Shown here piece after piece: positions 9,203 to 26,198 of a stretch of 64,000 nucleotides of DNA; position 1 is the first letter of the stretch, and every line of letters begins with the position of its first letter. Below the pieces are notes generated by a model. It ran no database searches. It worked only from the letters and a program-made list of their open reading frames with translations, and was not told where the DNA came from. Origin of the DNA: Pseudomonadota bacterium. GTDB lineage: Bacteria; Desulfobacterota; Desulfobacteria; Desulfobacterales; RPRI01. Position numbers and translations under genes: made by a program. The stretch covers positions 1 to 64,000 of the forward strand of contig JBDRRF010000066.1 of the NCBI GenBank assembly GCA_043825875.1. The letters run 5' to 3'.

Positions 9203-11332
9203 ATGGAGGCAAGCATGAAAACAAGTAAATTCGCCCGTAAAACCGGCAAAGTATTTATTCCAAGTGCAAAAAAATTCACGCCCAATCAGAAACCAATTCA
9301 ACCGGACATCATTGATAGAAATAATTTATCGGTCAATGAACTGGTTAATCCGCAAACTCTACATCCATACAAGTTTTGTCATACAAATCTTAAGCAAGGA
9401 TGTTATTCCATTTCAATAACAACAAGTTCTATGACTTTTTTAAACCGGGGATGGCGTGGCACGATTCGTGTTGAAAAGGCAGATGACGGAATCTGTATTT
9501 CGGGTGACCTATATACAGTAAGGCGATATATGGTTATGAGTAAAAAAGTCCTTGCCGGTACAAAAGAGTATAAATTGGCAAAACCCGAACTAAGAAATAT
9601 TGAACTTCTCTATGAAAACAGATTATTTTCGGAATATCCGGTTTTTAAAAAGAAGATCCCTGTTTATTCCCGGCGCAGTTATTATGCTTTCCTTTTAGGA
9701 ACATCGGCACAGCTATATGCTATATCACACAATAATAATCCATGTTCTTTCAACCTTGATTTTGATCTGTACGAATTTGATCATGATGATACCGGTTATG
9801 AAGGCACATACCCAAATGCCCCTACAAAGGCAATCCGGCTTGTTCTTCAGCACACAGATATCGATAATCGCTATACCGGAAAAATGTTCGAAGGCGAAAC
9901 TGAACTCGGCACGGTAACTATGGAATGGGTTTCAAGCTATTTCCGAAAGGCTTATTTGGACATCCATACCCTGCAAGGAGCACAACCACCTCAAGGTGTT
10001 GATGATCCGGATAGTACTGACACAGAAACTTTCAGGACCATTTTTGCTACCGCAGGTTGGGACTTGTCTGCTTCATACAAAACACCTGACATTACTATTC
10101 CGGCCAGCCTTGCCGGTATCCAGGCCTCTGCTGATTGCTGGAATCGCGAAAATTCCCATGAATTACTCGAAACTGTGTCGACTTACGATCCAGCAGTTTT
10201 AGATAAAAAATGGAAAGTACATCTCATAGCAATTGAAGGAAGGCTTGGATGCAGCCGGGGAAGAATGTTTGATAATGAGATTGATGCTGCCGACATAGGC
10301 GATGTCAATAATGTAGCACGTGAAGGCGCAGTTACATACAGTGATGATGGTTACAATCATGCAAATTTTGGTGACAATGAAAATGATTTGCAAAAAGATA
10401 CGCCGCGGGCATTTATTCGTAGTGCCGCCCATGAAGTTGGACATGCTTTTAATATGATCCATCAACATGACGAAGCCGTTAACGATAATTCTATAATGAC
10501 AGTATCACCAGGTGTGGCAGGTGTATTAAATGCTGACGGGCTTGATTTTCCGGAAGATATTGATCTTTCATTTAACGCGCTTTGTCGTCATCACCTGATT
10601 CATCGCCCTGATCCGTGGGTACGTCCCGGTGCGCTTGAGTTCACCGGAAGTTTAGTCGGCACTCCCGAAGCAGATGATGTTTATTTTTATGATTCTTCGC
10701 AACTAAAGATGGAGCTTACCCTGTCTGGTAAAAATATAAAACTGGGAGAAATACTTAAAATCTCCTGGAAAATTACCAATACATCAAAGAATCCCATTGA
10801 TTTTCCTGAGCGAGTAACCGACAGTTCCTTTACTGCCCGCGTCAGTATTACCTATCCCGATGGCTCGATAAGATTTGTTCGCCCGGTAGATGTGAATGCC
10901 GACATTGATAATCCGCTTATACCGTTAAACTCCGGCCAATCCCGCACATCTGAAACAACATTATTTTGGAATAAAAAAGGGTTTGCTTTCACCAATCCTG
11001 GAAAACATATCATTGAAGTAAATATTTTGTGGGCTGATGAAGGGTACCATTCATGCGTTAATGCATCTGAAGATATCTGGGTAGATTACCCTGTAACAGC
11101 TAATGAAAATGAAGTCGCCTCGCTTATTCTGCATAAAGATGTCGGACGGTATGTTGCGCTAAAAGGCAGAAAGCCTATCAAAGAGGCAATACAACGAATC
11201 GAAAAAGTAATCTCCAACTATAAAACACACCCTGCAAGCGGGGCGCTTAAAGATATTCCCGGACACCGCTATTCGCTGGTCAAGCTGCCGGCAAAAACGA
11301 AAGTAATTAAGCCGGTTTCAAAAAAACAATAA
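9203..11332 (+). CDS. Uncharacterised metzincin-like zinc metallopeptidase with C-terminal beta-sandwich
   Basis: AHEVGHAFNMIH (HExxHxxxxxH) followed by Met-turn SIMT; start may be the second Met (9215). Confidence 0.7.
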   Translation: MEASMKTSKFARKTGKVFIPSAKKFTPNQKPIQPDIIDRNNLSVNELVNPQTLHPYKFCHTNLKQGCYSISITTSSMTFLNRGWRGTIRVEKADDGICISGDLYTVRRYMVMSKKVLAGTKEYKLAKPELRNIELLYENRLFSEYPVFKKKIPVYSRRSYYAFLLGTSAQLYAISHNNNPCSFNLDFDLYEFDHDDTGYEGTYPNAPTKAIRLVLQHTDIDNRYTGKMFEGETELGTVTMEWVSSYFRKAYLDIHTLQGAQPPQGVDDPDSTDTETFRTIFATAGWDLSASYKTPDITIPASLAGIQASADCWNRENSHELLETVSTYDPAVLDKKWKVHLIAIEGRLGCSRGRMFDNEIDAADIGDVNNVAREGAVTYSDDGYNHANFGDNENDLQKDTPRAFIRSAAHEVGHAFNMIHQHDEAVNDNSIMTVSPGVAGVLNADGLDFPEDIDLSFNALCRHHLIHRPDPWVRPGALEFTGSLVGTPEADDVYFYDSSQLKMELTLSGKNIKLGEILKISWKITNTSKNPIDFPERVTDSSFTARVSITYPDGSIRFVRPVDVNADIDNPLIPLNSGQSRTSETTLFWNKKGFAFTNPGKHIIEVNILWADEGYHSCVNASEDIWVDYPVTANENEVASLILHKDVGRYVALKGRKPIKEAIQRIEKVISNYKTHPASGALKDIPGHRYSLVKLPAKTKVIKPVSKKQ

Positions 11333-13049: not shown

Positions 13050-13331
13050 ATGATTCAAACTTTTGCTTCATCCGAAACGGAACGCTTCTTTGCTACCGGA
13101 AAATCGCGCCGCTTGCCGCAGGATATACTCAAACGTGCAGCGATGCGCTTGACACAGTTGGACGGCGCCATACGCCTCGAAGACTTGCGGGCTCCCCCTT
13201 CTAACAGACTTGAGGCTCTAGTTCATGATCGTGCTGGTCAATGGAGTATTCGCATTAACGATCAATGGCGTATCTGCTTCCGCTTTAAAAACGGAGACGC
13301 ATATGACGTTGAAATTGTCGATTATCACTAA
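13050..13331 (+). CDS. higB: HigB (RelE-like) toxin
   Basis: PPSNRLEAL...GQWSIRINDQWRICF...EIVDYH. Confidence 0.93.
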   Translation: MIQTFASSETERFFATGKSRRLPQDILKRAAMRLTQLDGAIRLEDLRAPPSNRLEALVHDRAGQWSIRINDQWRICFRFKNGDAYDVEIVDYH

Positions 13332-13344
13332 AGGAGAAAATATT

Positions 13345-13641
13345 ATGGTTAAAAATGGTTTGCCTGCAATTCATCCGGGAGAATTTCTGGCTGAAATCAT
13401 AGGAGAGATGGACATATCGCAAGCTGCGTTCGCGCGCGCTATCGGGGTATCACCCATGCGGATTTCGCATGTTATCAAGGGCGATCGTCCGGTGACGGCG
13501 GAACTGGCATTACTTATTGGACGTGCGTTCAACCAGTCACCGCAATATTGGCTCAATCTTCAGGCGTCTTACGATTTAAAAATCGCGGAGATCAATATCG
13601 GAAAACGCCTCACTAATGTCCATTCATTAACGCATGCTTAA
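13345..13641 (+). CDS. higA: HigA antitoxin (HTH XRE)
   Basis: IHPGEFL...YWLNLQASYDL; true start MVKNG after AAGGAG. Confidence 0.93.
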   Translation: MVKNGLPAIHPGEFLAEIIGEMDISQAAFARAIGVSPMRISHVIKGDRPVTAELALLIGRAFNQSPQYWLNLQASYDLKIAEINIGKRLTNVHSLTHA

Positions 13642-17745: not shown

Positions 17746-20064
17746 CTAACTTGTTACTTTTAACACGTCATTTAATACTTTACTCAGTGCATTATCACCA
17801 AAAGGTTTTGGCATCATGCCTTTGAAACCATATTCACGAAAATTTGACATAATCGGATCATCAGAGTAACCACTTGACACAATGGCCTTTACTTCAGGAT
17901 CTATCTCAAGCAATATCTTTATTACATCCTTTCCTCCCATAGCACCGGGAATTGTCAAGTCCAGGATGACGGCATCATAGGGTTTTCCGGACTCCCAGGC
18001 TTTTTTATATAATGCAATCGCCTCATCACCATCTTTTGCGAACTCTGCTTCATATCCCAGCATATCCAGCATTTCTCCTATCATTAATCTTAAATATTTA
18101 TCATCATCCATTATAAGTATTTTACCCTTGCCTTTTAACAGGACAGATTCTTCTTTCAGCTGAATTTCTTTTCCGGAAGCAGGCAGGTAAATGTAAAATG
18201 TGGTTCCATAACCTAAACGAGAGTTTACCGATATGTGCCCGCCGTGCTTTTTGATAATAGAATAGGCTGTTGCAAGTCCGAGACCTATTCCCGTTTGCTT
18301 GGTTGAAAAATATGGATCAAATACCTTTGGAAGATACTTTTCATCTATGCCCATCCCATTATCCTTAATAGTAATCATGATGTATTTGCCCGGTTGTAAA
18401 GGGAGGCCATGCTTTTCTTCAATTAATTTATTTTCGGCACGAATCTGTATGATGCCACCATCCGGCATAGACTGGTTTGCATTTATAACAATATTGTTAA
18501 TAACCTGGCTTATCTGTCCAGTATCGATCTCAGCTGGCCGTAGGTCTTTTGCAATAGAGAAATCGCATCTCGATTTTGAGCCGGTCAATATAAAGCGGGA
18601 AGACTCTTCCAGAATTTTTGCAATTGAATAAACTTCCTTTACCGGTGCTCCACCTTTGGCAAAAGTCAACAATTGCATTGTTAGCGCCTGTGCCCTCTTA
18701 GAGGCAGCTTCCGTCGCACTCAGAAGATCAAATATCTTATGGTCGGATTTTATACTCATCTTGGCAAGGGAAATATTTCCTAAAATCACTGTCAGTATAT
18801 TATTAAAATCATGGGCTATGCCTCCTGCAAGAATACCGACTGATTCAAGTTTCTGAGACTTCTGAATATCTTCTTCCGTCTGTTTGCGCTCGGTGATGTT
18901 GTCGAACATCACAACAAAACACTCCTTACCAGGAGAATAGACCGAGAAGTCAAACCACATGTTCATGACGTTAACATAGTATTCGAAGCGCTCAGGCCGG
19001 CCGGTCAATGCCACAATGGCAAATCGTTCTAACAATTCAGGATCGGCTTTTTGGATACCGGGAATGACCTCTGAAACATTCTTACCGACAACATTCTTAA
19101 ATCCTGTCTGGTTTTGGAATGCGTTGTTGACAACAAGATAGACAAAGTCATGCGGTCGACCGTTCTCGAAAAGCATCCGGCAATACGCGAATCCCTCCAA
19201 CATATTTTCGAAAAGAGTCCGATAGCGCGTCTCGCTCTCACGAAGCGCTGTTTCTCTTACCTTTAAGGATTCAGCCATATTATTGAAAGCTTTTGCAAGT
19301 TCCCCTATTTCATCCTCTGTCTCAACAGGTACCGCCTCGACCACTCCTTCCATTCCTAATATTTTAACACTTTTAATTAATCTATTAAGAGGTTTTATTA
19401 TTCTATTTAATGCGATGTATGCAGTTGCAGAACCAATTATCAGGAAAACAATACCCATCAGGATGCTTTTAAATAAAATATCATTGAACTGCTTATGCAG
19501 CATTTCCTTATCCATCGTAATCTTGACAAATCCAATAAGACGGTCACTTCTCTGAAGGGGATTTTTAACAAAAAACATGGATTCTTCCACAAGGTGACCT
19601 GAGCTTGAGATTACAGGCGCCCAGAATTCTACATGGCTCTTATCCTCAAGATAAAAAGGGGAGAGAGACTCCCTCATTTTATCAAATATTTTTATTCTTC
19701 CTGATTCATCTCTATCACTTGGTTTTTCTGGAATTCTTGTTTTAAATCTTTCTTTACTCTTTAAAAGCTTCCCATCAAGATTGAACACAGAAACATCTAA
19801 GATATTTTCCTGTTGCAAAATTCCCTCAGCAGGACCCTCAAGCAGTTCTTTATTTTCCGAAAACACTCCAATCCTTGAGTTATAAGCAAGAACGCTTGCA
19901 AGTACTTTTCCATCTCTTATAAGATTGTCTGTGAGGGTGTTAATTTGGTTATGAATAAAGAGAGAAGTGAAAGAAACAGAAATAGCAAAGATAAAAAGGG
20001 TAATTGCAACAAAGACCTTTATGCGGAAATTTTCATTAATAATTTTAAGTAAATTCAAACTCAT
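17746..20064 (-). CDS. Hybrid sensor histidine kinase (periplasmic sensor, HAMP, PAS, HisKA, HATPase, REC)
   Basis: Two TM segments, DEIGELAKAFNNM HAMP, AGGIAHDFNNIL H-box, GLGLA G-box, receiver with ILDLT and KPF. Confidence 0.93.
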   Translation of the reverse strand: MSLNLLKIINENFRIKVFVAITLFIFAISVSFTSLFIHNQINTLTDNLIRDGKVLASVLAYNSRIGVFSENKELLEGPAEGILQQENILDVSVFNLDGKLLKSKERFKTRIPEKPSDRDESGRIKIFDKMRESLSPFYLEDKSHVEFWAPVISSSGHLVEESMFFVKNPLQRSDRLIGFVKITMDKEMLHKQFNDILFKSILMGIVFLIIGSATAYIALNRIIKPLNRLIKSVKILGMEGVVEAVPVETEDEIGELAKAFNNMAESLKVRETALRESETRYRTLFENMLEGFAYCRMLFENGRPHDFVYLVVNNAFQNQTGFKNVVGKNVSEVIPGIQKADPELLERFAIVALTGRPERFEYYVNVMNMWFDFSVYSPGKECFVVMFDNITERKQTEEDIQKSQKLESVGILAGGIAHDFNNILTVILGNISLAKMSIKSDHKIFDLLSATEAASKRAQALTMQLLTFAKGGAPVKEVYSIAKILEESSRFILTGSKSRCDFSIAKDLRPAEIDTGQISQVINNIVINANQSMPDGGIIQIRAENKLIEEKHGLPLQPGKYIMITIKDNGMGIDEKYLPKVFDPYFSTKQTGIGLGLATAYSIIKKHGGHISVNSRLGYGTTFYIYLPASGKEIQLKEESVLLKGKGKILIMDDDKYLRLMIGEMLDMLGYEAEFAKDGDEAIALYKKAWESGKPYDAVILDLTIPGAMGGKDVIKILLEIDPEVKAIVSSGYSDDPIMSNFREYGFKGMMPKPFGDNALSKVLNDVLKVTS

Positions 20065-20073
20065 TTCCTTCCT

Positions 20074-20976
20074 TTAGTCAATGATCCTTGCTTTCCTGAT
20101 AATATTTTCTTCAATATTAATTCCTAATTGTTTTGCTACATTAAGATTAATCGTTATAATTGCCTTTCTTGCATCTATCTGCTTACCATTCATTATATTA
20201 CTTCCTGAGAGTATCTTTTTAGCCACCTCTCCTGCCTGAGAACCCATATCAAAAGCATCTACACCTATAGACATAAGTGCTCCAACCTCCACATACTTTT
20301 CTGAAAAGGCAAGGATGGGGATTTTATTTTCAAGGGAGAAGAGAAGCATAAATTCAACTGTTTCAGGGGTAATCACCGTTAGATCCGGGAGTATCCAGAA
20401 GGCATCTATCTTTCCTTCCATATCTTTTATTAATTGAGGAACATCCTTAGAAATATAAACCTGCTTAGCAACCAGTTGAATACCAAGTTTTCCAGCGGCA
20501 TCTTTTGACTCTTTTGCAAGATGGCCTGTTCTATCTTTGTCATATAAAAGGCCGATAGCTTTTATTTCAGGCATTACGGATAGGAGAGTAGAAAGCTGCT
20601 CTTCCTGGGATATATTCATGCCGACACCGCTGATATTCTTTTCTCCTGAAAGTATGGACCATGGATTTAAGACCATGACATATATAACGGGAATATCTTT
20701 AATCCTTTTTACCTTCAAGAGTGCATTCACCCCTATTGCAAGAATCATATCAGGACTGATCTTATTGATTTCCCCTACAACATCTTTACCTTGCAATTCT
20801 GAGATGATTAGCCTTTTGATCCGGGCATCACAAGTATTTTTGAACCCCTCAATAGCATCTTCGTATGGCTGTACCCTGCTGCTTTGGACAACCACAACCT
20901 CTTGCCCGGCCCGGGCTAAACCCTGGCAAACAATTAAAAATAATATAATAACTAGTAAAGAAAGATTTCTTATCAC
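20074..20976 (-). CDS. Periplasmic ABC_sub_bind-type substrate-binding protein with no adjacent permease or ATPase
   Basis: Signal peptide; IGLLYD, DAFWILPD, GALMSIG, INLNVAKQLGI motifs. Confidence 0.85.
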   Translation of the reverse strand: MIRNLSLLVIILFLIVCQGLARAGQEVVVVQSSRVQPYEDAIEGFKNTCDARIKRLIISELQGKDVVGEINKISPDMILAIGVNALLKVKRIKDIPVIYVMVLNPWSILSGEKNISGVGMNISQEEQLSTLLSVMPEIKAIGLLYDKDRTGHLAKESKDAAGKLGIQLVAKQVYISKDVPQLIKDMEGKIDAFWILPDLTVITPETVEFMLLFSLENKIPILAFSEKYVEVGALMSIGVDAFDMGSQAGEVAKKILSGSNIMNGKQIDARKAIITINLNVAKQLGINIEENIIRKARIID

Positions 20977-21117: not shown

Positions 21118-23091
21118 ATGAAGAAACCAGAAATGATTTATTCATGTAGCCATTTTCATAAAATATGCATCTTCTTGCTTTGTTTTGTCCTTACAATGAC
21201 TCCCTTTTGCGGGGCTTTCGCTGCCCAGTCTCAAGACGAAATGGATGTTCTTCGCCTGTTTTATAAGGAAAAAGACCTAGTTGTGTCTGCCACCAGGCAT
21301 CCTAAACCCATTTCCCAGGTTGCGGAAAACATCACGGTTGTCACTGCAAAAGAAATAGAGGAGATGAATGCCCATACTGTAGCGGAAGTCCTTGCAAGAA
21401 TTCCCGGCCTTTTTGTTGCTTTCAGCCAGGGCGCAGGAATCTTTGGCTCTACCTCCCTTACAAAAATTCAGGGTTCTGAAGACAGGCATGTTCTCGTCCA
21501 GGTTGATGGGGTAACCTGGAATTTTTTAAATAGCGGAGCCGCCGAAACCAATTCAATCCCTGTTGGCATTATAGAACGCATCGAGGTCATCAAAGGTCCC
21601 GCATCATCGGCCTGGGGCTCAGCTCTTGGCGGTGTGGTTAACATCATAACAAAGTCACCAGGAAGCGCAGAAAGACCTTCCGGTACCATAAGCGGCTCTT
21701 ATGGTGAGAAAAATACGCAGGATTACAGAGCCGAGATCTCGGGAAAAGAAGGGGTTATAGGCTATTATCTGTATGCCGGCAGGCAATATACCGAGGGTCA
21801 GATGCCTTCAATAGACTTTGATACCCATAGCTTTTATTCTAAATTTCATATCCCTTTTTCAGAAAATGTTGCGGTGGGTCTGAGTGCGGGATACAGCGAT
21901 CCGCAAAATGGCCTCGGCGATTTTGATAGTGGAGATTTCAGCTCAAAAAATAGCAGCCGCACATTTTTTACAACCGTCTCGCTTGATGCATCTCTTACCG
22001 GGGAGCTTGATTTCAACATATCCTTCCACCATTTCAAACAAAGAAGCGATATAGTAAATAATTTCCTTGGACTGGGAGGTTTCAGCACACCCGGTGAATT
22101 ATATTTAGATAGCCTTTATGATGAGAAAACTACGGGAGGAAGCGGCAAATTTGTATGGAAGTCCGGAAGGCACACCGCTGTTTTAGGTGTAGATGCTGAC
22201 AGGGGAAAGCTTGATCAGTCACTTACCTCAGGAGCACTTCTCCAATTATACGGCGCCCCGGCAGAATCGACTGTACATCCCGATGTCGAACGGTGGGCGG
22301 TATATATCAACGACACCATAGTAATCGACAGATTGTCAATCACACCCGGCATCCGGTATGATCATAACAGCATTACAGGCTCCTTTACAAGCCCCTCTCT
22401 GGGAGCTACCTATCGGCTTGGTGAAGATTCAATTTTAAGGGCTTCTGTAGCAAGAGGCTTTACCATACCTCCCCTTTCCTGGACCTCAGGTGGAGGATTG
22501 TTCCTTGATCCGAATTCGTCTCTTAAGCCCGAAAAAGTCTGGTCGTATCAAACAGGTTTAGAATCAACAGCTTTAAAGTACCTCTGGGCCAAGGCTACGG
22601 TGTTTCGCCATGATATAAAAGATGTCTTGAAAAAGGAGCCGTTTGCAGGAGGAGCGCCGGTATTTAATGACCTTTATATTAACAGCGGTTCAAGCAGGCG
22701 TCAGGGGATTGAACTTGAAGCCGAAACAGTCCCGGTGTATAATTTTTCTTGCCGGTCGGGATTTGCCTATGTGGATATAGATCCTGACAACGAGTTCGGA
22801 GCTTCCGAAATCTATTCCTGGAATATCATTTTTAAATATGATGACAAAAAATCCTTTCGTGCCCAGATCTTTGGCCATTATGTATGGTGGGACTTAGATC
22901 CTTCAGCTGGGGCAAGCTATGATGATTTAATCTGGGATTTAAACCTTAATAAAAAAATATGCTCTTACAAAAGAACTTCTACGGAAATATTTCTTACGGC
23001 TCATAACATCTTTAACGGGTCTCAATATACCTTTAGCGATATTCAAAACCCCGAAAGATGGGTTGAGGCCGGGTTGCGCTTTTCATTTTAA
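21118..23091 (+). CDS. TonB-dependent outer-membrane receptor
   Basis: Signal peptide, VVSATR TonB-box region, plug motif IERIEVIKGPASSAWGS...GGVVNIITK, C-terminal aromatic RFSF. Confidence 0.93.
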   Translation: MKKPEMIYSCSHFHKICIFLLCFVLTMTPFCGAFAAQSQDEMDVLRLFYKEKDLVVSATRHPKPISQVAENITVVTAKEIEEMNAHTVAEVLARIPGLFVAFSQGAGIFGSTSLTKIQGSEDRHVLVQVDGVTWNFLNSGAAETNSIPVGIIERIEVIKGPASSAWGSALGGVVNIITKSPGSAERPSGTISGSYGEKNTQDYRAEISGKEGVIGYYLYAGRQYTEGQMPSIDFDTHSFYSKFHIPFSENVAVGLSAGYSDPQNGLGDFDSGDFSSKNSSRTFFTTVSLDASLTGELDFNISFHHFKQRSDIVNNFLGLGGFSTPGELYLDSLYDEKTTGGSGKFVWKSGRHTAVLGVDADRGKLDQSLTSGALLQLYGAPAESTVHPDVERWAVYINDTIVIDRLSITPGIRYDHNSITGSFTSPSLGATYRLGEDSILRASVARGFTIPPLSWTSGGGLFLDPNSSLKPEKVWSYQTGLESTALKYLWAKATVFRHDIKDVLKKEPFAGGAPVFNDLYINSGSSRRQGIELEAETVPVYNFSCRSGFAYVDIDPDNEFGASEIYSWNIIFKYDDKKSFRAQIFGHYVWWDLDPSAGASYDDLIWDLNLNKKICSYKRTSTEIFLTAHNIFNGSQYTFSDIQNPERWVEAGLRFSF

Positions 23092-23154
23092 TGTTGCATA
23101 ACTGTTAAAGACGTGTTAAAAGCGATTCTATAAAAATCTTTAAACTTTCAGATG

Positions 23155-23241
23155 CATGCCGAACTCGATGAGCCTGCCCCGGTAAGATATAGGTCGGGGG
23201 TATCCAAAACATCTTAGATATAATGGATACTGGCGTTTGCC
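23155..23241. repeat. Degenerate REP-like palindromic element between the receptor and the peptide gene
   Basis: CCCCGG...TCGGGG hairpin plus GTATCCA...TGGATAC inverted repeat. Confidence 0.4.
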
Positions 23242-23319
23242 AATATTACAATATAAAAGCGTTTTTCGAAATTTTAATGATTCTTTAAACGAAAAGACAT
23301 CAAAAAAAGGAGGAAAGGC

Positions 23320-23445
23320 ATGAAAGAAGAAAAAGCAAAAGAAACTAAAGAAGAAATAATGGTACTTGATGAAGGTATTGATGTAGATGATACAGTCGAT
23401 ATGGGTATAATGTGTTGTTCCGGTGCATTAGCTCCTTTTAGATGA
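23320..23445 (+). CDS. Uncalled 41-aa RiPP precursor peptide (geopeptide-like) MKEEKAKETKEEIMVLDEGIDVDDTVDMGIMCCSGALAPFR
   Basis: Manual translation; AGGAGG RBS at 23308-13; acidic leader with VLDEG motif and C-terminal CC core; immediately upstream of a rSAM/SPASM gene. Confidence 0.88.
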   Translation: MKEEKAKETKEEIMVLDEGIDVDDTVDMGIMCCSGALAPFR

Positions 23446-23451
23446 TTAATC

Positions 23452-23496
23452 TTAACAAAAAGGAGCGGCAATAGCACTGCCTCTCCTTTTTGTTAA
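23452..23496 (+). terminator. Strong hairpin between precursor and maturase
   Basis: TTAACAAAAAGGAG-CGGCA...TGCCT-CTCCTTTTTGTTAA. Confidence 0.85.
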
Positions 23497-23511
23497 CTTT
23501 CTCTGGACACT

Positions 23512-24819
23512 ATGCTACTTTCCCGCTACCTCAAGGTATATCCTTACGGAGAAAGCGATGATGAATTGTTGCTTTTTTCTACCCGTAAGATGTCAAAAAT
23601 TCTCCTTAATAAAGAAACCTATCAGGCCATTGAAAATAACGGCGGGCTTTCTGCTTCAGATGAGGCTCTTTTATCAAAGCTTGGCATGATAGTTCATGAC
23701 CGGGAAGTGGAAAAGATAGACTTATTTAATTTTTTGGATGAACTTAATGTAAAAAATAACGGATTGCATGTCATAGTTGTCCTTAATTTGGACTGCAATT
23801 TTGCCTGCACATATTGTTATGAAGGGGGCATGAAGGGAAAGCTCTATATGTCAGATGAAACTGCGGATAATCTTGTAGATTTCATCAAAAATAATTTCCC
23901 TCCCCATAAAAAATCTCTTCTTATAGATTTTTTCGGAGGAGAGCCTCTTTTGAGCATTGACCTTATTAAACGTATTTCCCAAGCATTAAAGTCATTTATC
24001 GAAAGCAGAGGAGCCTCTTACAGCTTTACCCTTGTAACAAATGGTTCTCTCTTTACAAAAAAGACAGCAGAAGAATTAGTTGCATTAGGGCTTGAAGGCG
24101 TAAAAATAACTTTAGACGGCCCGGCCGAAACTCATAATCAATCAAGGCCTTTTAAATCGGGTGCCAAAAGCTTTGATACGCTCATTAAGAATATCAAAGA
24201 GACTTGCGATCTTGTAAAAATAGGCATAGGTGGAAATTTTACAAAGGAAAATTACGAAAAATTTCCTTTACTTCTTGATTATCTGGCAAGAGAAGGGCTA
24301 ACGCCGGATAAAATTGCCACGGTAAAGTTTGACCCTGTAATGAAACAGCCTGAAGGGAATTTTTCGCCTCCCGAATATGCAAGCGGCTGTACTTCAGTTA
24401 ATGAGCCATGGCTGATGGGTGTTGTTGCGTACTTGCGGGAAGAGATTTTAAAAAGAGGATACAATACGCAAAAGATTATGCCCATGACCTGCATGACAGA
24501 ATCTACAAACTCCTATGTGGTTAATTTCGATGGCGTTATTTACAAATGTCCGGGTTTTATTGGCAAAAAGGGCTATGATGTTGGGACTCTTTTGACAGGC
24601 GCAAAAGATTATGCTGCTTATAAGCCCACCATCTGGAAAAATGAGGAGTGTTCCGGTTGTGAGTATCTTCCTCTTTGTTACGGAGGATGCAGATATATGA
24701 CGTTTTTGCGCACTGGAACAATAGATACGGTGGATTGCCAAAAGGCCTACCTTGATGCCTCACTTGAAACATTGATCAAGCAGGACATTAAATATAAACT
24801 AAGAGCGGACAACCGTTGA
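23512..24819 (+). CDS. Radical SAM/SPASM peptide maturase (geopeptide-maturase-like)
   Basis: CNFACTYC, FFGGEPLL, TNG, TLDG; SPASM cysteines C...YKC...CSGC-x5-C-x3-C-x15-C; ~80-aa N-terminal extension resembling an RRE. Confidence 0.92.
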   Translation: MLLSRYLKVYPYGESDDELLLFSTRKMSKILLNKETYQAIENNGGLSASDEALLSKLGMIVHDREVEKIDLFNFLDELNVKNNGLHVIVVLNLDCNFACTYCYEGGMKGKLYMSDETADNLVDFIKNNFPPHKKSLLIDFFGGEPLLSIDLIKRISQALKSFIESRGASYSFTLVTNGSLFTKKTAEELVALGLEGVKITLDGPAETHNQSRPFKSGAKSFDTLIKNIKETCDLVKIGIGGNFTKENYEKFPLLLDYLAREGLTPDKIATVKFDPVMKQPEGNFSPPEYASGCTSVNEPWLMGVVAYLREEILKRGYNTQKIMPMTCMTESTNSYVVNFDGVIYKCPGFIGKKGYDVGTLLTGAKDYAAYKPTIWKNEECSGCEYLPLCYGGCRYMTFLRTGTIDTVDCQKAYLDASLETLIKQDIKYKLRADNR

Positions 24820-25391
24820 GCAAATTAAGAGCCTTAAATCTACTGATATTTACCACTGTCAGCTTTATGTGAACTGTTATATTCGAACCAATAGATCCCT
24901 TTGCAGAAAACCCTTTCTCTTTTTAACAGTCATATTCTAATGAAATTATCCTCTTTCTTTGCACGATTGTTCTTCAAACATATAAGTTGTCTCCAGGCAG
25001 CAGAACAACGCTGTTGTGTCTTTAAGTTATCAGGAGTAGAGGGGGTATTAGGGATACTCCACATATTTATAATTTATATGGTATATAAATGTTATGCAAA
25101 GATATTCTCAGATAGCCTCTCCTGGAGCCACCATATCATCGGTGAATTTACTTTCTACATATATTCCCTCCGACCCCAATATTCCCGCTGTGTCAACTAA
25201 TCCTTTTTAATCATATTTTGATTGCGCTTGGGTATCATTTTATTTGATGCAATTCTATACAAGTTGTGGCAGGCAATATTTTCTTGACATACTATCATTT
25301 TCTTTTATACTTTATACTTATAAAAGCAATATCTTATCTATTACAGGACATCCCCAATCGACAATGCAGCCACTTTAAAAAGAGGAACATC

Positions 25392-26198
25392 ATGTCAATT
25401 GTTACAATATCCAGAGGATCTTACAGCCGGGGAAAGGAAATTGCTGAAAAGCTGGCCGGAGCATTAGGCTATGAATGTATTTCCCGTGAAATTATCCTCG
25501 AAGCTTCCGAGCAGTTCAATATACCGGAAATAAAGCTTGTACGGGCAATCCATGATGCACCATCTGTTCTGGACCGCTTTTCCTATGGCAAGGAAAGATA
25601 TATTGCATTCTTCCGTGCGGCTTTTTTAAAACGCCTGCAAAAGGATAATCTTGTTTATCACGGCCTGGCCGGCCACGTCTTTGTGCAGAAAATCCCGCAT
25701 ATATTGAAAGTTCGCATTATCGCCAATCTGGAAGACCGGATAAACGAAGAAATGAAACGCGAAAATATTTCGGCTGAGCAGGCCCGTCAAATACTGGTCA
25801 AAGATGATGCCGAGCGCAGAAAATGGAGCATGGCGCTTTACAATTTAGACACATGGGACCAGCGGTTTTATGACATGACCCTGCATTTGGACACCATGGG
25901 CGTGGAAGACGCAGTTTCAACCATCCTTCATATACTTGAGCGCCCCTGCTTCCGAACAACTCCTAAAAGCCGGGAGCTGCTTGACAATCTGTCACTAAGT
26001 GCCCAGGCAGAGGCTGCCCTGGTAAATGAATTCCCGAAAGCAACTGTTGATGCCGGAAAGGGGGTTGTTTACATCAGTATCCGTGGATCTCTTGTTGATG
26101 AAAAAAGGATCAATACAAAAGTAAATCACCTAATCAAAAATGTTGCGGGTACTAAAAAAGTACACATCAACATTGTCCCGCATCATATAGAAGATTGA
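25392..26198 (+). CDS. Cytidylate-kinase-like family protein with C-terminal BON-like domain
   Basis: IVTISRGSYSRGKEIAEKLA, LKVRIIA, DDAERRKW; start MSIVTIS after AGAGGA. Confidence 0.8.
   Translation: MSIVTISRGSYSRGKEIAEKLAGALGYECISREIILEASEQFNIPEIKLVRAIHDAPSVLDRFSYGKERYIAFFRAAFLKRLQKDNLVYHGLAGHVFVQKIPHILKVRIIANLEDRINEEMKRENISAEQARQILVKDDAERRKWSMALYNLDTWDQRFYDMTLHLDTMGVEDAVSTILHILERPCFRTTPKSRELLDNLSLSAQAEAALVNEFPKATVDAGKGVVYISIRGSLVDEKRINTKVNHLIKNVAGTKKVHINIVPHHIED

What the first reader, a model, noticed from the sequence alone, without database searches (positions are those of the whole stretch)
23320..23445. Uncalled 41-aa precursor peptide with VLDEG leader motif and Cys-Cys core
Seen: AGGAGG RBS, then MKEEKAKETKEEIMVLDEGIDVDDTVDMGIMCCSGALAPFR*. 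It is missing from the ORF track, which shows only a spurious antisense ORF here. From recall, the acidic VLDEG...CC layout matches the bioinformatically defined geopeptide family (TIGR04229, maturase TIGR04280; identifiers need verifying), whose chemistry I believe is uncharacterised. Inference: with C32/C33 and only one aromatic residue (F40), thioether cross-links are the most plausible modification.
Basis: partly seen in the sequence, partly recalled or inferred. Interest (0 to 1): 0.8.

Follow-up and report, generated by a model that had tools for sequence, protein, structure and literature searches.

The report
Geopeptide precursor in peptide-sensing cassette
This tiny gene is real: it encodes a small two-cysteine peptide next to its modifying enzyme, in a conserved gene set with an outer-membrane receptor, a periplasmic binding protein and a sensor kinase, which suggests but does not prove that these anaerobic bacteria signal with the peptide.

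Summary
The 41-codon ORF is real. It has an AGGAGG site and a strong downstream hairpin, and it precedes a radical SAM/SPASM enzyme that passes the geopeptide maturase model TIGR04280 (561 bits, cut-off 400). The peptide fails TIGR04229 (6.9 bits, cut-off 30), as did every homologue I scored. Related precursors lie upstream of 14 of 14 related maturases with upstream DNA. Across 49 precursors only the leader motif, the Cys pair and a short tail are kept. Thioether chemistry is likely but not shown: the seven-Cys SPASM pattern matches CteB and CrpC, and 21 of 49 cores lack aromatics. All 26 of 401 phylum genomes with the maturase also carry this TonB-receptor clade (34 of 401 in all), mostly beside a PF04392 binding protein and sensor kinase, in five gene orders. 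Best reading: a strain-variable peptide signal that is imported and sensed. Against it: no exporter or peptidase here, no expression data, and the sensor module also occurs without peptides. This scan noted the same cassette in other genomes. My paper searches found no description.

The parts
17746..20064 (-). Hybrid sensor histidine kinase, 772 aa (sCache_4-like periplasmic domain, HAMP, HisKA, HATPase, receiver)
   Evidence: Pfam, (protein 57); orthologues at related loci
20074..20976 (-). Periplasmic binding protein PF04392, 300 aa, with no ABC permease or ATPase gene beside it
   Evidence: Pfam; model closest to CD0873, 3LKV and the Trp-bound 3LFT; ORF list
21118..23091 (+). TonB-dependent receptor, 657 aa (plug and barrel; Pfam shows no N-terminal signalling domain), with an acidic-then-aromatic segment just before the TonB box
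   Evidence: genome profile; N-terminal comparison
23308..23313 (+). Ribosome-binding site AGGAGG, 6 nt before the precursor ATG
   Evidence: sequence; RBS-like word before 41 of 49 precursors
23320..23445 (+). Geopeptide-type precursor, 41 aa: charged N-terminus, leader motif I13-G19, variable linker, Cys32-Cys33, 8-residue tail ending in Arg41
23452..23496 (+). Stable intergenic hairpin between precursor and maturase; probably an attenuator or stabiliser favouring precursor RNA (inferred)
   Evidence: z -5.2; z < -2 downstream of 20 of 49 precursors against 4 of 49 coding controls
23512..24819 (+). Geopeptide radical SAM/SPASM maturase, 435 aa: N-terminal RRE-like domain, C95/C99/C102 motif, SPASM C327, C346, C380, C383, C389, C393, C409
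   Evidence: TIGR04280 561.3 bits; invariant Cys; model with three strands then three helices at the N-terminus, pLDDT 89.6; Foldseek best hit CteB, 5WHY/5WGG

Best explanation
The ORF is the precursor of a radical-SAM-modified peptide, most likely an extracellular signal. (1) The precursor is made in excess over the maturase because of the hairpin (inferred). (2) The leader motif binds the maturase's N-terminal RRE-like domain (inferred from CteB). (3) The enzyme abstracts an H atom and joins one or both Cys thiols to carbons in the short tail, giving one or two thioether rings, -2 Da each. The closest characterised relatives make non-alpha (ranthionine) links. The residue four after the second Cys (Leu37 here) is a weak guess for an acceptor. 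(4) The leader is removed and the roughly 10-residue basic core leaves the cell by a route not encoded here (unknown). (5) The linked TonB receptor takes the peptide into the periplasm, the PF04392 protein binds it, and the divergently encoded hybrid kinase is switched (inferred). Shown: the ORF, the maturase identity, the conserved Cys pair and the five-gene linkage. Inferred: the chemistry, export, sensing and what the signal controls. My odds: real precursor about 0.97; thioether about 0.8; peptide sensed through the linked module about 0.6.
For: Precursors: 14 of 14 GTDB loci with upstream DNA (a 15th locus starts inside the maturase). In the phylum sample, 28 of 30 over-cut-off maturase places have one on the same contig; the other two are short contigs, and their genomes carry a precursor beside the receptor on another contig. 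Of 49 precursors, 47 have CC and 2 have C-x-C; Arg or Lys sits at +9 in 36; all 49 cores differ; none has Asp/Glu at +4 or +5; 21 have no aromatic residue after the first Cys. Chemistry: seven invariant SPASM Cys in 33 of 33 maturases. The first two are spaced x18, as in CrpC of TIGR04463, which has a three-Cys AuxI and cross-links motifs with no acidic acceptor (PMC13692751). CteB is the best sequence and structure match. Linkage: all 26 maturase-positive genomes of 401 are among the 34 with this receptor at E<=1e-45. The receptor is on the same stretch in 27 of 28 maturase rows; receptor, binding protein and kinase together in 21 of 28, with most gaps at contig ends. Five gene orders occur. 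A sub-cut-off variant (G005, G023, G100) keeps the logic with a family-5 binding protein, and G005 has a dCache kinase. G255 has an extra receptor, binding protein and precursor with no maturase beside them. All five same-genus systems have different cores, and the precursor changes faster than the maturase. Core distance tracks binding-protein distance after allowing for the maturase tree (partial r 0.29, 2 of 999 permutations; stable on dropping rows).
Against: No peptidase or exporter lies in this cassette. A half-size MFS gene is linked in only some loci (4 of 15; L061, L066, L076, L041), and this genome has no close match to it (best E 1e-13). The binding protein/kinase module is generic: it matches in 56 of 401 genomes and occurs with distant receptors or alone, with no peptide (for example G232). 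G066 and G332 lack part of the module on long stretches. Tree distances of the four proteins correlate (rho 0.53-0.81), but that can be shared descent, and G255b is a mosaic. Mantel-type tests on related sequences overstate significance. An eighth Cys (C293) is present in 30 of 33 maturases and could fill the open AuxI site. No DNA-binding response regulator lies beside the kinase in this window. The system is in only 4 of 16 same-genus genomes searched, several of them fragmented.
Confidence: 0.5

Rival explanations
1. Same signal, different wiring: the peptide binds the outer-membrane receptor, and the PF04392 protein relays from the receptor's periplasmic N-terminus to the kinase without binding the peptide (YfiB/YfiR-like logic, recalled).
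For: A hydrophobic/aromatic segment precedes the TonB box in 38 of 41 receptors at PF04392-type geopeptide loci and 9 of 11 receptors of peptide-free PF04392 modules, against 0 of 6 others. The TonB box looks degenerate in 5 of 37 receptors. The closest solved PF04392 proteins include a Trp-bound one.
Against: The pattern was defined after looking, and the six negatives are few independent events. Core sequence tracks the binding protein, not the receptor, in partial tests (receptor r 0.09, 136 of 999).
Confidence: 0.15
2. The modified Cys-Cys peptide is a metal ligand (methanobactin-like in role, recalled): it is exported, re-imported loaded with metal, and the kinase reports metal status.
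For: The Cys pair is invariant. TonB receptors usually import metal chelates (recalled), and this genome has TonB genes (2 over cut-off). The CrpC authors suggest a metal role for their related cluster.
Against: Thioether formation would consume the thiols. The tail is hypervariable even within a genus. No inner-membrane uptake system is linked. No shared upstream motif stood out in 200 nt upstream of the 49 precursors; Fur boxes were not tested directly.
Confidence: 0.17
3. The maturase acts on the cysteines without forming an S-C ring (for example Cys C-beta oxidation as in anaerobic sulfatase maturases, epimerisation, or a link to the conserved Arg), whatever the product's role.
For: No acceptor residue is conserved apart from the basic +9 position. 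C293 might complete AuxI. anSME and SuiB are also among the structural hits.
Against: The anSME-type extra Cys near the first SPASM ligand is absent. C293 is replaced in 3 of 33 maturases. The nearest NCBIfam families are Cys-rich-substrate maturases, and CrpC makes thioethers on varied residues.
Confidence: 0.1
4. The product is a narrow-spectrum bacteriocin or a shared cofactor, and the receptor/kinase set serves immunity or uptake.
For: Fast core divergence and patchy presence. RiPP antibiotics enter through TonB receptors (PMC8183687 passages). PQQ and mycofactocin are radical-SAM RiPP cofactors (PMC10114670 passages).
Against: No immunity gene, dedicated ABC exporter or further tailoring enzyme is conserved. 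A producer carrying its own importer fits a toxin poorly, and variable cores fit a cofactor poorly (inference).
Confidence: 0.08

Closest known systems
NCBIfam geopeptide system (TIGR04229 precursor, TIGR04280 maturase, hypothetical equivalog)
   Same: The maturase passes the cut-off over its full length. A short leader-motif/Cys-Cys peptide lies immediately upstream.
   Different: The peptide is below the TIGR04229 cut-off. The model names cover only peptide and enzyme, not the receptor, binding protein or kinase. No paper was found for the names.
CteB / SCIFF ranthipeptides (PDB 5WGG, 5WHY)
   Same: RRE, radical SAM and seven-Cys SPASM layout; best PDB match by sequence and fold. A reference-list title links SCIFF ranthipeptides to quorum sensing in clostridia (paper not read).
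   Different: About 20% identity; TIGR03974 103 bits against a cut-off of 425. Two adjacent Cys rather than six. Gram-negative host with an outer-membrane receptor.
CrpC (TIGR04463) of Methanococcus voltae, PMC13692751
   Same: Seven SPASM Cys with the same x18 spacing of the first two; ranthionine-type thioethers on motifs without acidic acceptors. TIGR04463 is the third-best family (172.6 bits).
   Different: Far below that family's cut-off (525). CrpC's substrate is a large repeat protein.
PapB / freyrasin and QhpD (Cys-to-Asp/Glu ranthionines)
   Same: Same enzyme architecture; NF047865 139.7 bits.
   Different: No Asp/Glu at +4 or +5 in any of 49 precursors, so the CxxxD rule (recalled) cannot apply.
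Uncharacterised Parabacteroides RaS-RiPP cluster (PMC9389541)
   Same: Two-component system, precursor, radical SAM enzyme and TonB receptor in one cluster (passage).
   Different: That cluster has a peptidase-containing ABC exporter and nucleotidyltransferases and a 61-mer precursor; no periplasmic binding protein is listed.

Membership tests
Geopeptide maturase TIGR04280 | HMM score above 400 bits | tested here: met
   561.3 bits, model positions 1-428 of 428
Geopeptide precursor TIGR04229 | HMM score above 30 bits | tested here: not met
   6.9 bits, E 6.2; not found in the own-genome scan. Eight other precursors scored individually gave at most 29.6, and 0 of 5 maturase-bearing genomes had a match over the cut-off.
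Geopeptide system | Short leader-motif/Cys-Cys ORF directly upstream of a TIGR04280 gene | tested here: met
   66-nt gap here; 14 of 14 and 28 of 30 related loci
RRE-dependent radical SAM/SPASM RiPP maturase | CxxxCxxC motif, SPASM cysteines, N-terminal RRE fold | tested here: met
   RRE assigned from predicted secondary structure and the full-length match to CteB
Ranthipeptide or sactipeptide | Radical-SAM-installed Cys-to-carbon thioether (non-alpha or alpha) | not testable with these tools
   Homology favours a thioether, non-alpha more than alpha; needs mass spectrometry
Ranthipeptide or sactipeptide | Three-Cys AuxI cluster with an open site | tested here: inconclusive
   Seven invariant SPASM Cys fit, but C293 (30 of 33) lies in a low-confidence loop
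PapB/QhpD-type ranthipeptide | Asp or Glu four residues after the Cys | tested here: not met
   0 of 49
Aromatic cross-linked RiPPs (cyclophane, streptide type) | Conserved aromatic residue in the core | tested here: not met
   21 of 49 have none after the first Cys
Peptide quorum-sensing circuit | Signal and cognate sensor genes linked, with strain-variable signal | tested here: met
Peptide quorum-sensing circuit | Dedicated export and processing of the signal | tested here: inconclusive
   No exporter or peptidase in this cassette; a half-size MFS gene at some loci only; a shared housekeeping route was not tested
Peptide quorum-sensing circuit | Secreted peptide changes kinase output with cell density | not testable with these tools
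   needs cultures and mutants

The most novel reading that the evidence does not exclude
Geopeptides are strain-specific, thioether-cyclised peptide pheromones of anaerobic Gram-negative bacteria (Desulfobacterota, Nitrospirota). They are read across two membranes by a dedicated TonB receptor, a transporter-less periplasmic binding protein and a sensor kinase: a RiPP-based quorum-sensing circuit with pherotypes, in which a generic receptor/binding protein/kinase module has been tied to a self-made ligand.
Probability: 0.45. Interest if true: 0.85.

Novelty: new variant of a known kind. Interest (0 to 1): 0.55.

Why it matters
The geopeptide family has a database name but, in the papers I could search, no chemistry and no function. 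This copy gives a short, easily made substrate with a paired enzyme, so the cross-link can be settled in one co-expression experiment. If the linked genes sense the product, Geobacter-type and sulfate-reducing bacteria would have a peptide-based cell-to-cell signal. Such signalling is mostly known from Gram-positive bacteria (recalled). It could bear on biofilm and syntrophic behaviour in sediments and groundwater. It would also give the first ligand for a widespread orphan receptor/PF04392/kinase module.

Tried and rejected
Rfam over 22900-25500 gave only a chance microRNA match on the hairpin. The sigma-70 scan was at chance level (10 sites against 8.3 expected), so no promoter is claimed. 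A sigma-54-like site was seen upstream of 6 of 49 precursors (shuffled mean 0.37) but not in this window. The intergenic stretches have no repeat elsewhere in the genome. A second regex-matching ORF on contig C21 was rejected as chance. The complex prediction never ran because the queue was full (binding protein with kinase sensor domain; then binding protein with receptor N-terminus), so there is no structural verdict on either contact. The cluster-member look-up could not be made. Haft and Basu 2011 is not held. Paper searches: 'geopeptide' gave 0. The accessions plus 'geopep' gave 28 papers, and none of the 20 listed held either accession. Three combined-term searches gave 0, and searches listed nothing on this system. 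Most subscription papers are not covered, and no supplementary tables were opened; network tables in radical SAM mining papers may list this family. In one search one of six arrangement classes comes from the neighbouring cassette in tandem locus L057 and was discounted. Absence of Gly four residues after the second Cys is only weak support for a side-chain acceptor, since +7, +8 and +9 also lack Gly.

Full report
Observation. The frame 23320-23445 (+) gives the 41-residue peptide exactly as reported, with AGGAGG at 23308-23313. It sits between a TonB-dependent receptor gene (21118-23091) and a 435-aa radical SAM gene (23512-24819) on the same strand. A 45-nt hairpin fills most of the 66-nt gap to the enzyme gene (z -5.2, 0 of 200 shuffles). 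In this genome 8 of 1131 short RBS-led frames have CC near the stop and 2 also have the leader pattern; the second is a chance frame.

Family. The enzyme scores 561.3 bits on TIGR04280, 'geopeptide radical SAM maturase' (cut-off 400), and the next family scores 198. The peptide scores 6.9 bits on TIGR04229 (cut-off 30), so it is not formally a member. The model has 22 positions and missed every homologue I tried: best 29.6 among those scored singly, and 0 of 5 genomes over the cut-off. Homology settles the matter. A similar ORF lies upstream of 14 of 14 related maturases that have upstream DNA, and on the same contig for 28 of 30 over-cut-off places in a 401-genome phylum sample. All 49 collected precursors start with ATG, 41 have an RBS-like word, and 20 have a downstream hairpin at z < -2 against 4 of 49 coding controls. 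I picked these ORFs by eye and by profile and required a Cys pair, so one-Cys forms would be missed.

Anatomy of the peptide. Conserved features are an aliphatic-x-x-Gly leader motif, a linker of mostly 9-13 residues, the Cys pair (47 CC, 2 C-x-C) and a tail of 8-9 residues in 33 of 49, with small residues at +3/+4, hydrophobic ones at +8 and Arg or Lys at +9 in 36 of 49. The ten-residue core carries a net positive charge in 46 of 49. All 49 cores differ. Among the five same-genus systems every core differs, and precursor codons change amino acid more often than silently (13-15 against 4-7), the reverse of the maturase.

Chemistry (inferred). The maturase model (pLDDT 89.6) starts with three strands and three helices, as an RRE would, and its best PDB match is CteB. 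Seven SPASM cysteines are invariant in 33 of 33 sequences. CteB has an auxiliary cluster with an open site and binds its leader on the RRE (PMC8326336, passages). CrpC, of the third-ranked family TIGR04463, has the same x18 spacing, a predicted three-Cys AuxI, and makes apparent ranthionine links on motifs without acidic acceptors (PMC13692751; abstract, passages and section 12). Aromatic cross-linking is unlikely as the family reaction, since 21 of 49 cores have no aromatic residue, and the Cys-x3-Asp pattern is absent in all 49. A thioether is therefore the best guess (about 0.8), non-alpha somewhat more likely than alpha. Against: C293, present in 30 of 33, could be a fourth AuxI ligand, and no acceptor residue is conserved.

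Context. Upstream lie the receptor and, divergently, a PF04392 binding protein and a hybrid sCache-HAMP kinase. The maturase passes its cut-off in 26 of 401 genomes. The receptor matches at E<=1e-45 in 34 of the same 401, including all 26. Of the other eight, three carry a sub-cut-off maturase with a precursor (G005, G023, G100), two end at a contig edge, one has a precursor near a contig edge, and two weak matches have no cassette. On wide loci the receptor is beside the maturase in 27 of 28 rows and all three partners in 21 of 28, in five gene orders; a 29th place is a 2.8-kb contig, and one place was not fetched separately because it is this window. The G005/G023/G100 variant swaps in a family-5 binding protein, and G005 has a dCache kinase; G023 has a similar kinase gene. 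G255 has a third receptor with a binding protein and a precursor but no adjacent maturase. Trees of the four proteins over 27 systems correlate (rho 0.53-0.81, 0 of 999 permutations), which shared descent alone could give.

Limits of the link. The binding protein family is wider than the peptide system: 56 of 401 genomes match. I fetched 20 of the places not already linked to a maturase. Many have distant receptors and kinases with no peptide, and G232 has a close binding protein/kinase pair with no receptor or maturase within 7 kb. So the module is generic, and only this receptor clade is tied to the peptide. No peptidase or exporter is in this cassette, and this genome has no close match to the half-size MFS gene seen at some loci. 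The system is in 4 of 16 same-genus genomes searched.

Which protein binds the peptide? Two results pull apart. Core distance tracks binding-protein distance after allowing for the maturase tree (partial r 0.29, 2 of 999), while receptor distance does not (r 0.09, 136 of 999), and this holds after dropping one or three rows. That favours import and direct binding, though such tests overstate. On the other side, receptors of PF04392-type loci carry an aromatic segment before the TonB box (38 of 41, and 9 of 11 in peptide-free modules, against 0 of 6; pattern set after looking), and 5 of 37 have a degenerate box. That suggests a receptor-to-binding-protein relay. The co-folding job that could have helped did not run.

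Literature and earlier notes. No paper in the library holds 'geopeptide', none of those listed holds the two accessions, and the combined searches found no description. The library lacks most subscription papers, and I opened no supplements. I also saw passages of PMC10114670, PMC8183687 and PMC9389541; the last mentions an uncharacterised Parabacteroides cluster with a radical SAM enzyme, a TonB receptor and a two-component system. Eight earlier notes of this scan describe the same cassette in other genomes. I had recorded that reading before opening them, and they are not independent support.

Verdict. This is a divergent geopeptide-type precursor with a true TIGR04280 maturase, in a conserved make-import-sense gene set. 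The most likely function is a thioether-cyclised, strain-variable peptide signal (0.5). Interest 0.55: the family is named but appears unstudied, and the locus makes both the chemistry and the signalling idea directly testable.

Noticed in passing
L003:1202-1405 and 1471-2790 (G000:C79, about 70.5-72.1 kb): A second RiPP-like pair in this genome: a 67-aa ORF with four Cys, including a Cys-Cys near its C-terminus, upstream of a radical SAM/SPASM enzyme that passes no NCBIfam family cut-off (best TIGR04463, 285.7 of 525).
   Followed up: partly
L066:4965-7097, L067:8593-10797, L041:582-2786: Three maturases are 711-735 codons long; the roughly 280-residue C-terminal extension of the two examined has no Pfam match. 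It could be a fused second enzyme.
   Followed up: partly
L081:4157-11009, L087:115-6589, L088:6240-11194: A co-oriented variant operon: receptor, family-5 binding protein, basic-leader precursor, sub-cut-off maturase and (in two) a kinase; the receptors lack the aromatic pre-TonB-box segment.
   Followed up: partly
L092:7058-10042 (G255): An orphan C-x-C precursor with its own receptor and binding protein but no adjacent maturase; its leader closely resembles that of another precursor in the same genome.
   Followed up: partly
L057 (G166:C1, about 379-390 kb): Two complete cassettes in tandem with different cores.
   Followed up: partly
L099:3109-6837 (G000:C95): A 1242-aa protein with four tandem PF04392 domains, followed by a STAS-domain gene.
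   Followed up: no
G000:C57:73873-83757: Four TonB-dependent receptor genes within 10 kb.
   Followed up: no
L010, L056, L063, L064, L080, L089 (65-165 nt upstream of the precursor region): Sigma-54-like sites upstream of 6 of 49 precursors, against a shuffled mean of 0.37; none in this window.
   Followed up: partly
L072:9390-11040: About 1.6 kb of other DNA separates precursor and maturase in G021; L011, L016 and L022 also have longer gaps or an inserted gene.
   Followed up: no
window 13050-13641 (+): Two small overlapping ORFs that look like a HigB/HigA-type toxin-antitoxin pair (recognised by eye; label recalled, not tested).
   Followed up: no
window 9203-11332 (+): A 709-aa ORF with an HExxH-like stretch, possibly a zinc metalloprotease (not scanned).
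   Followed up: no
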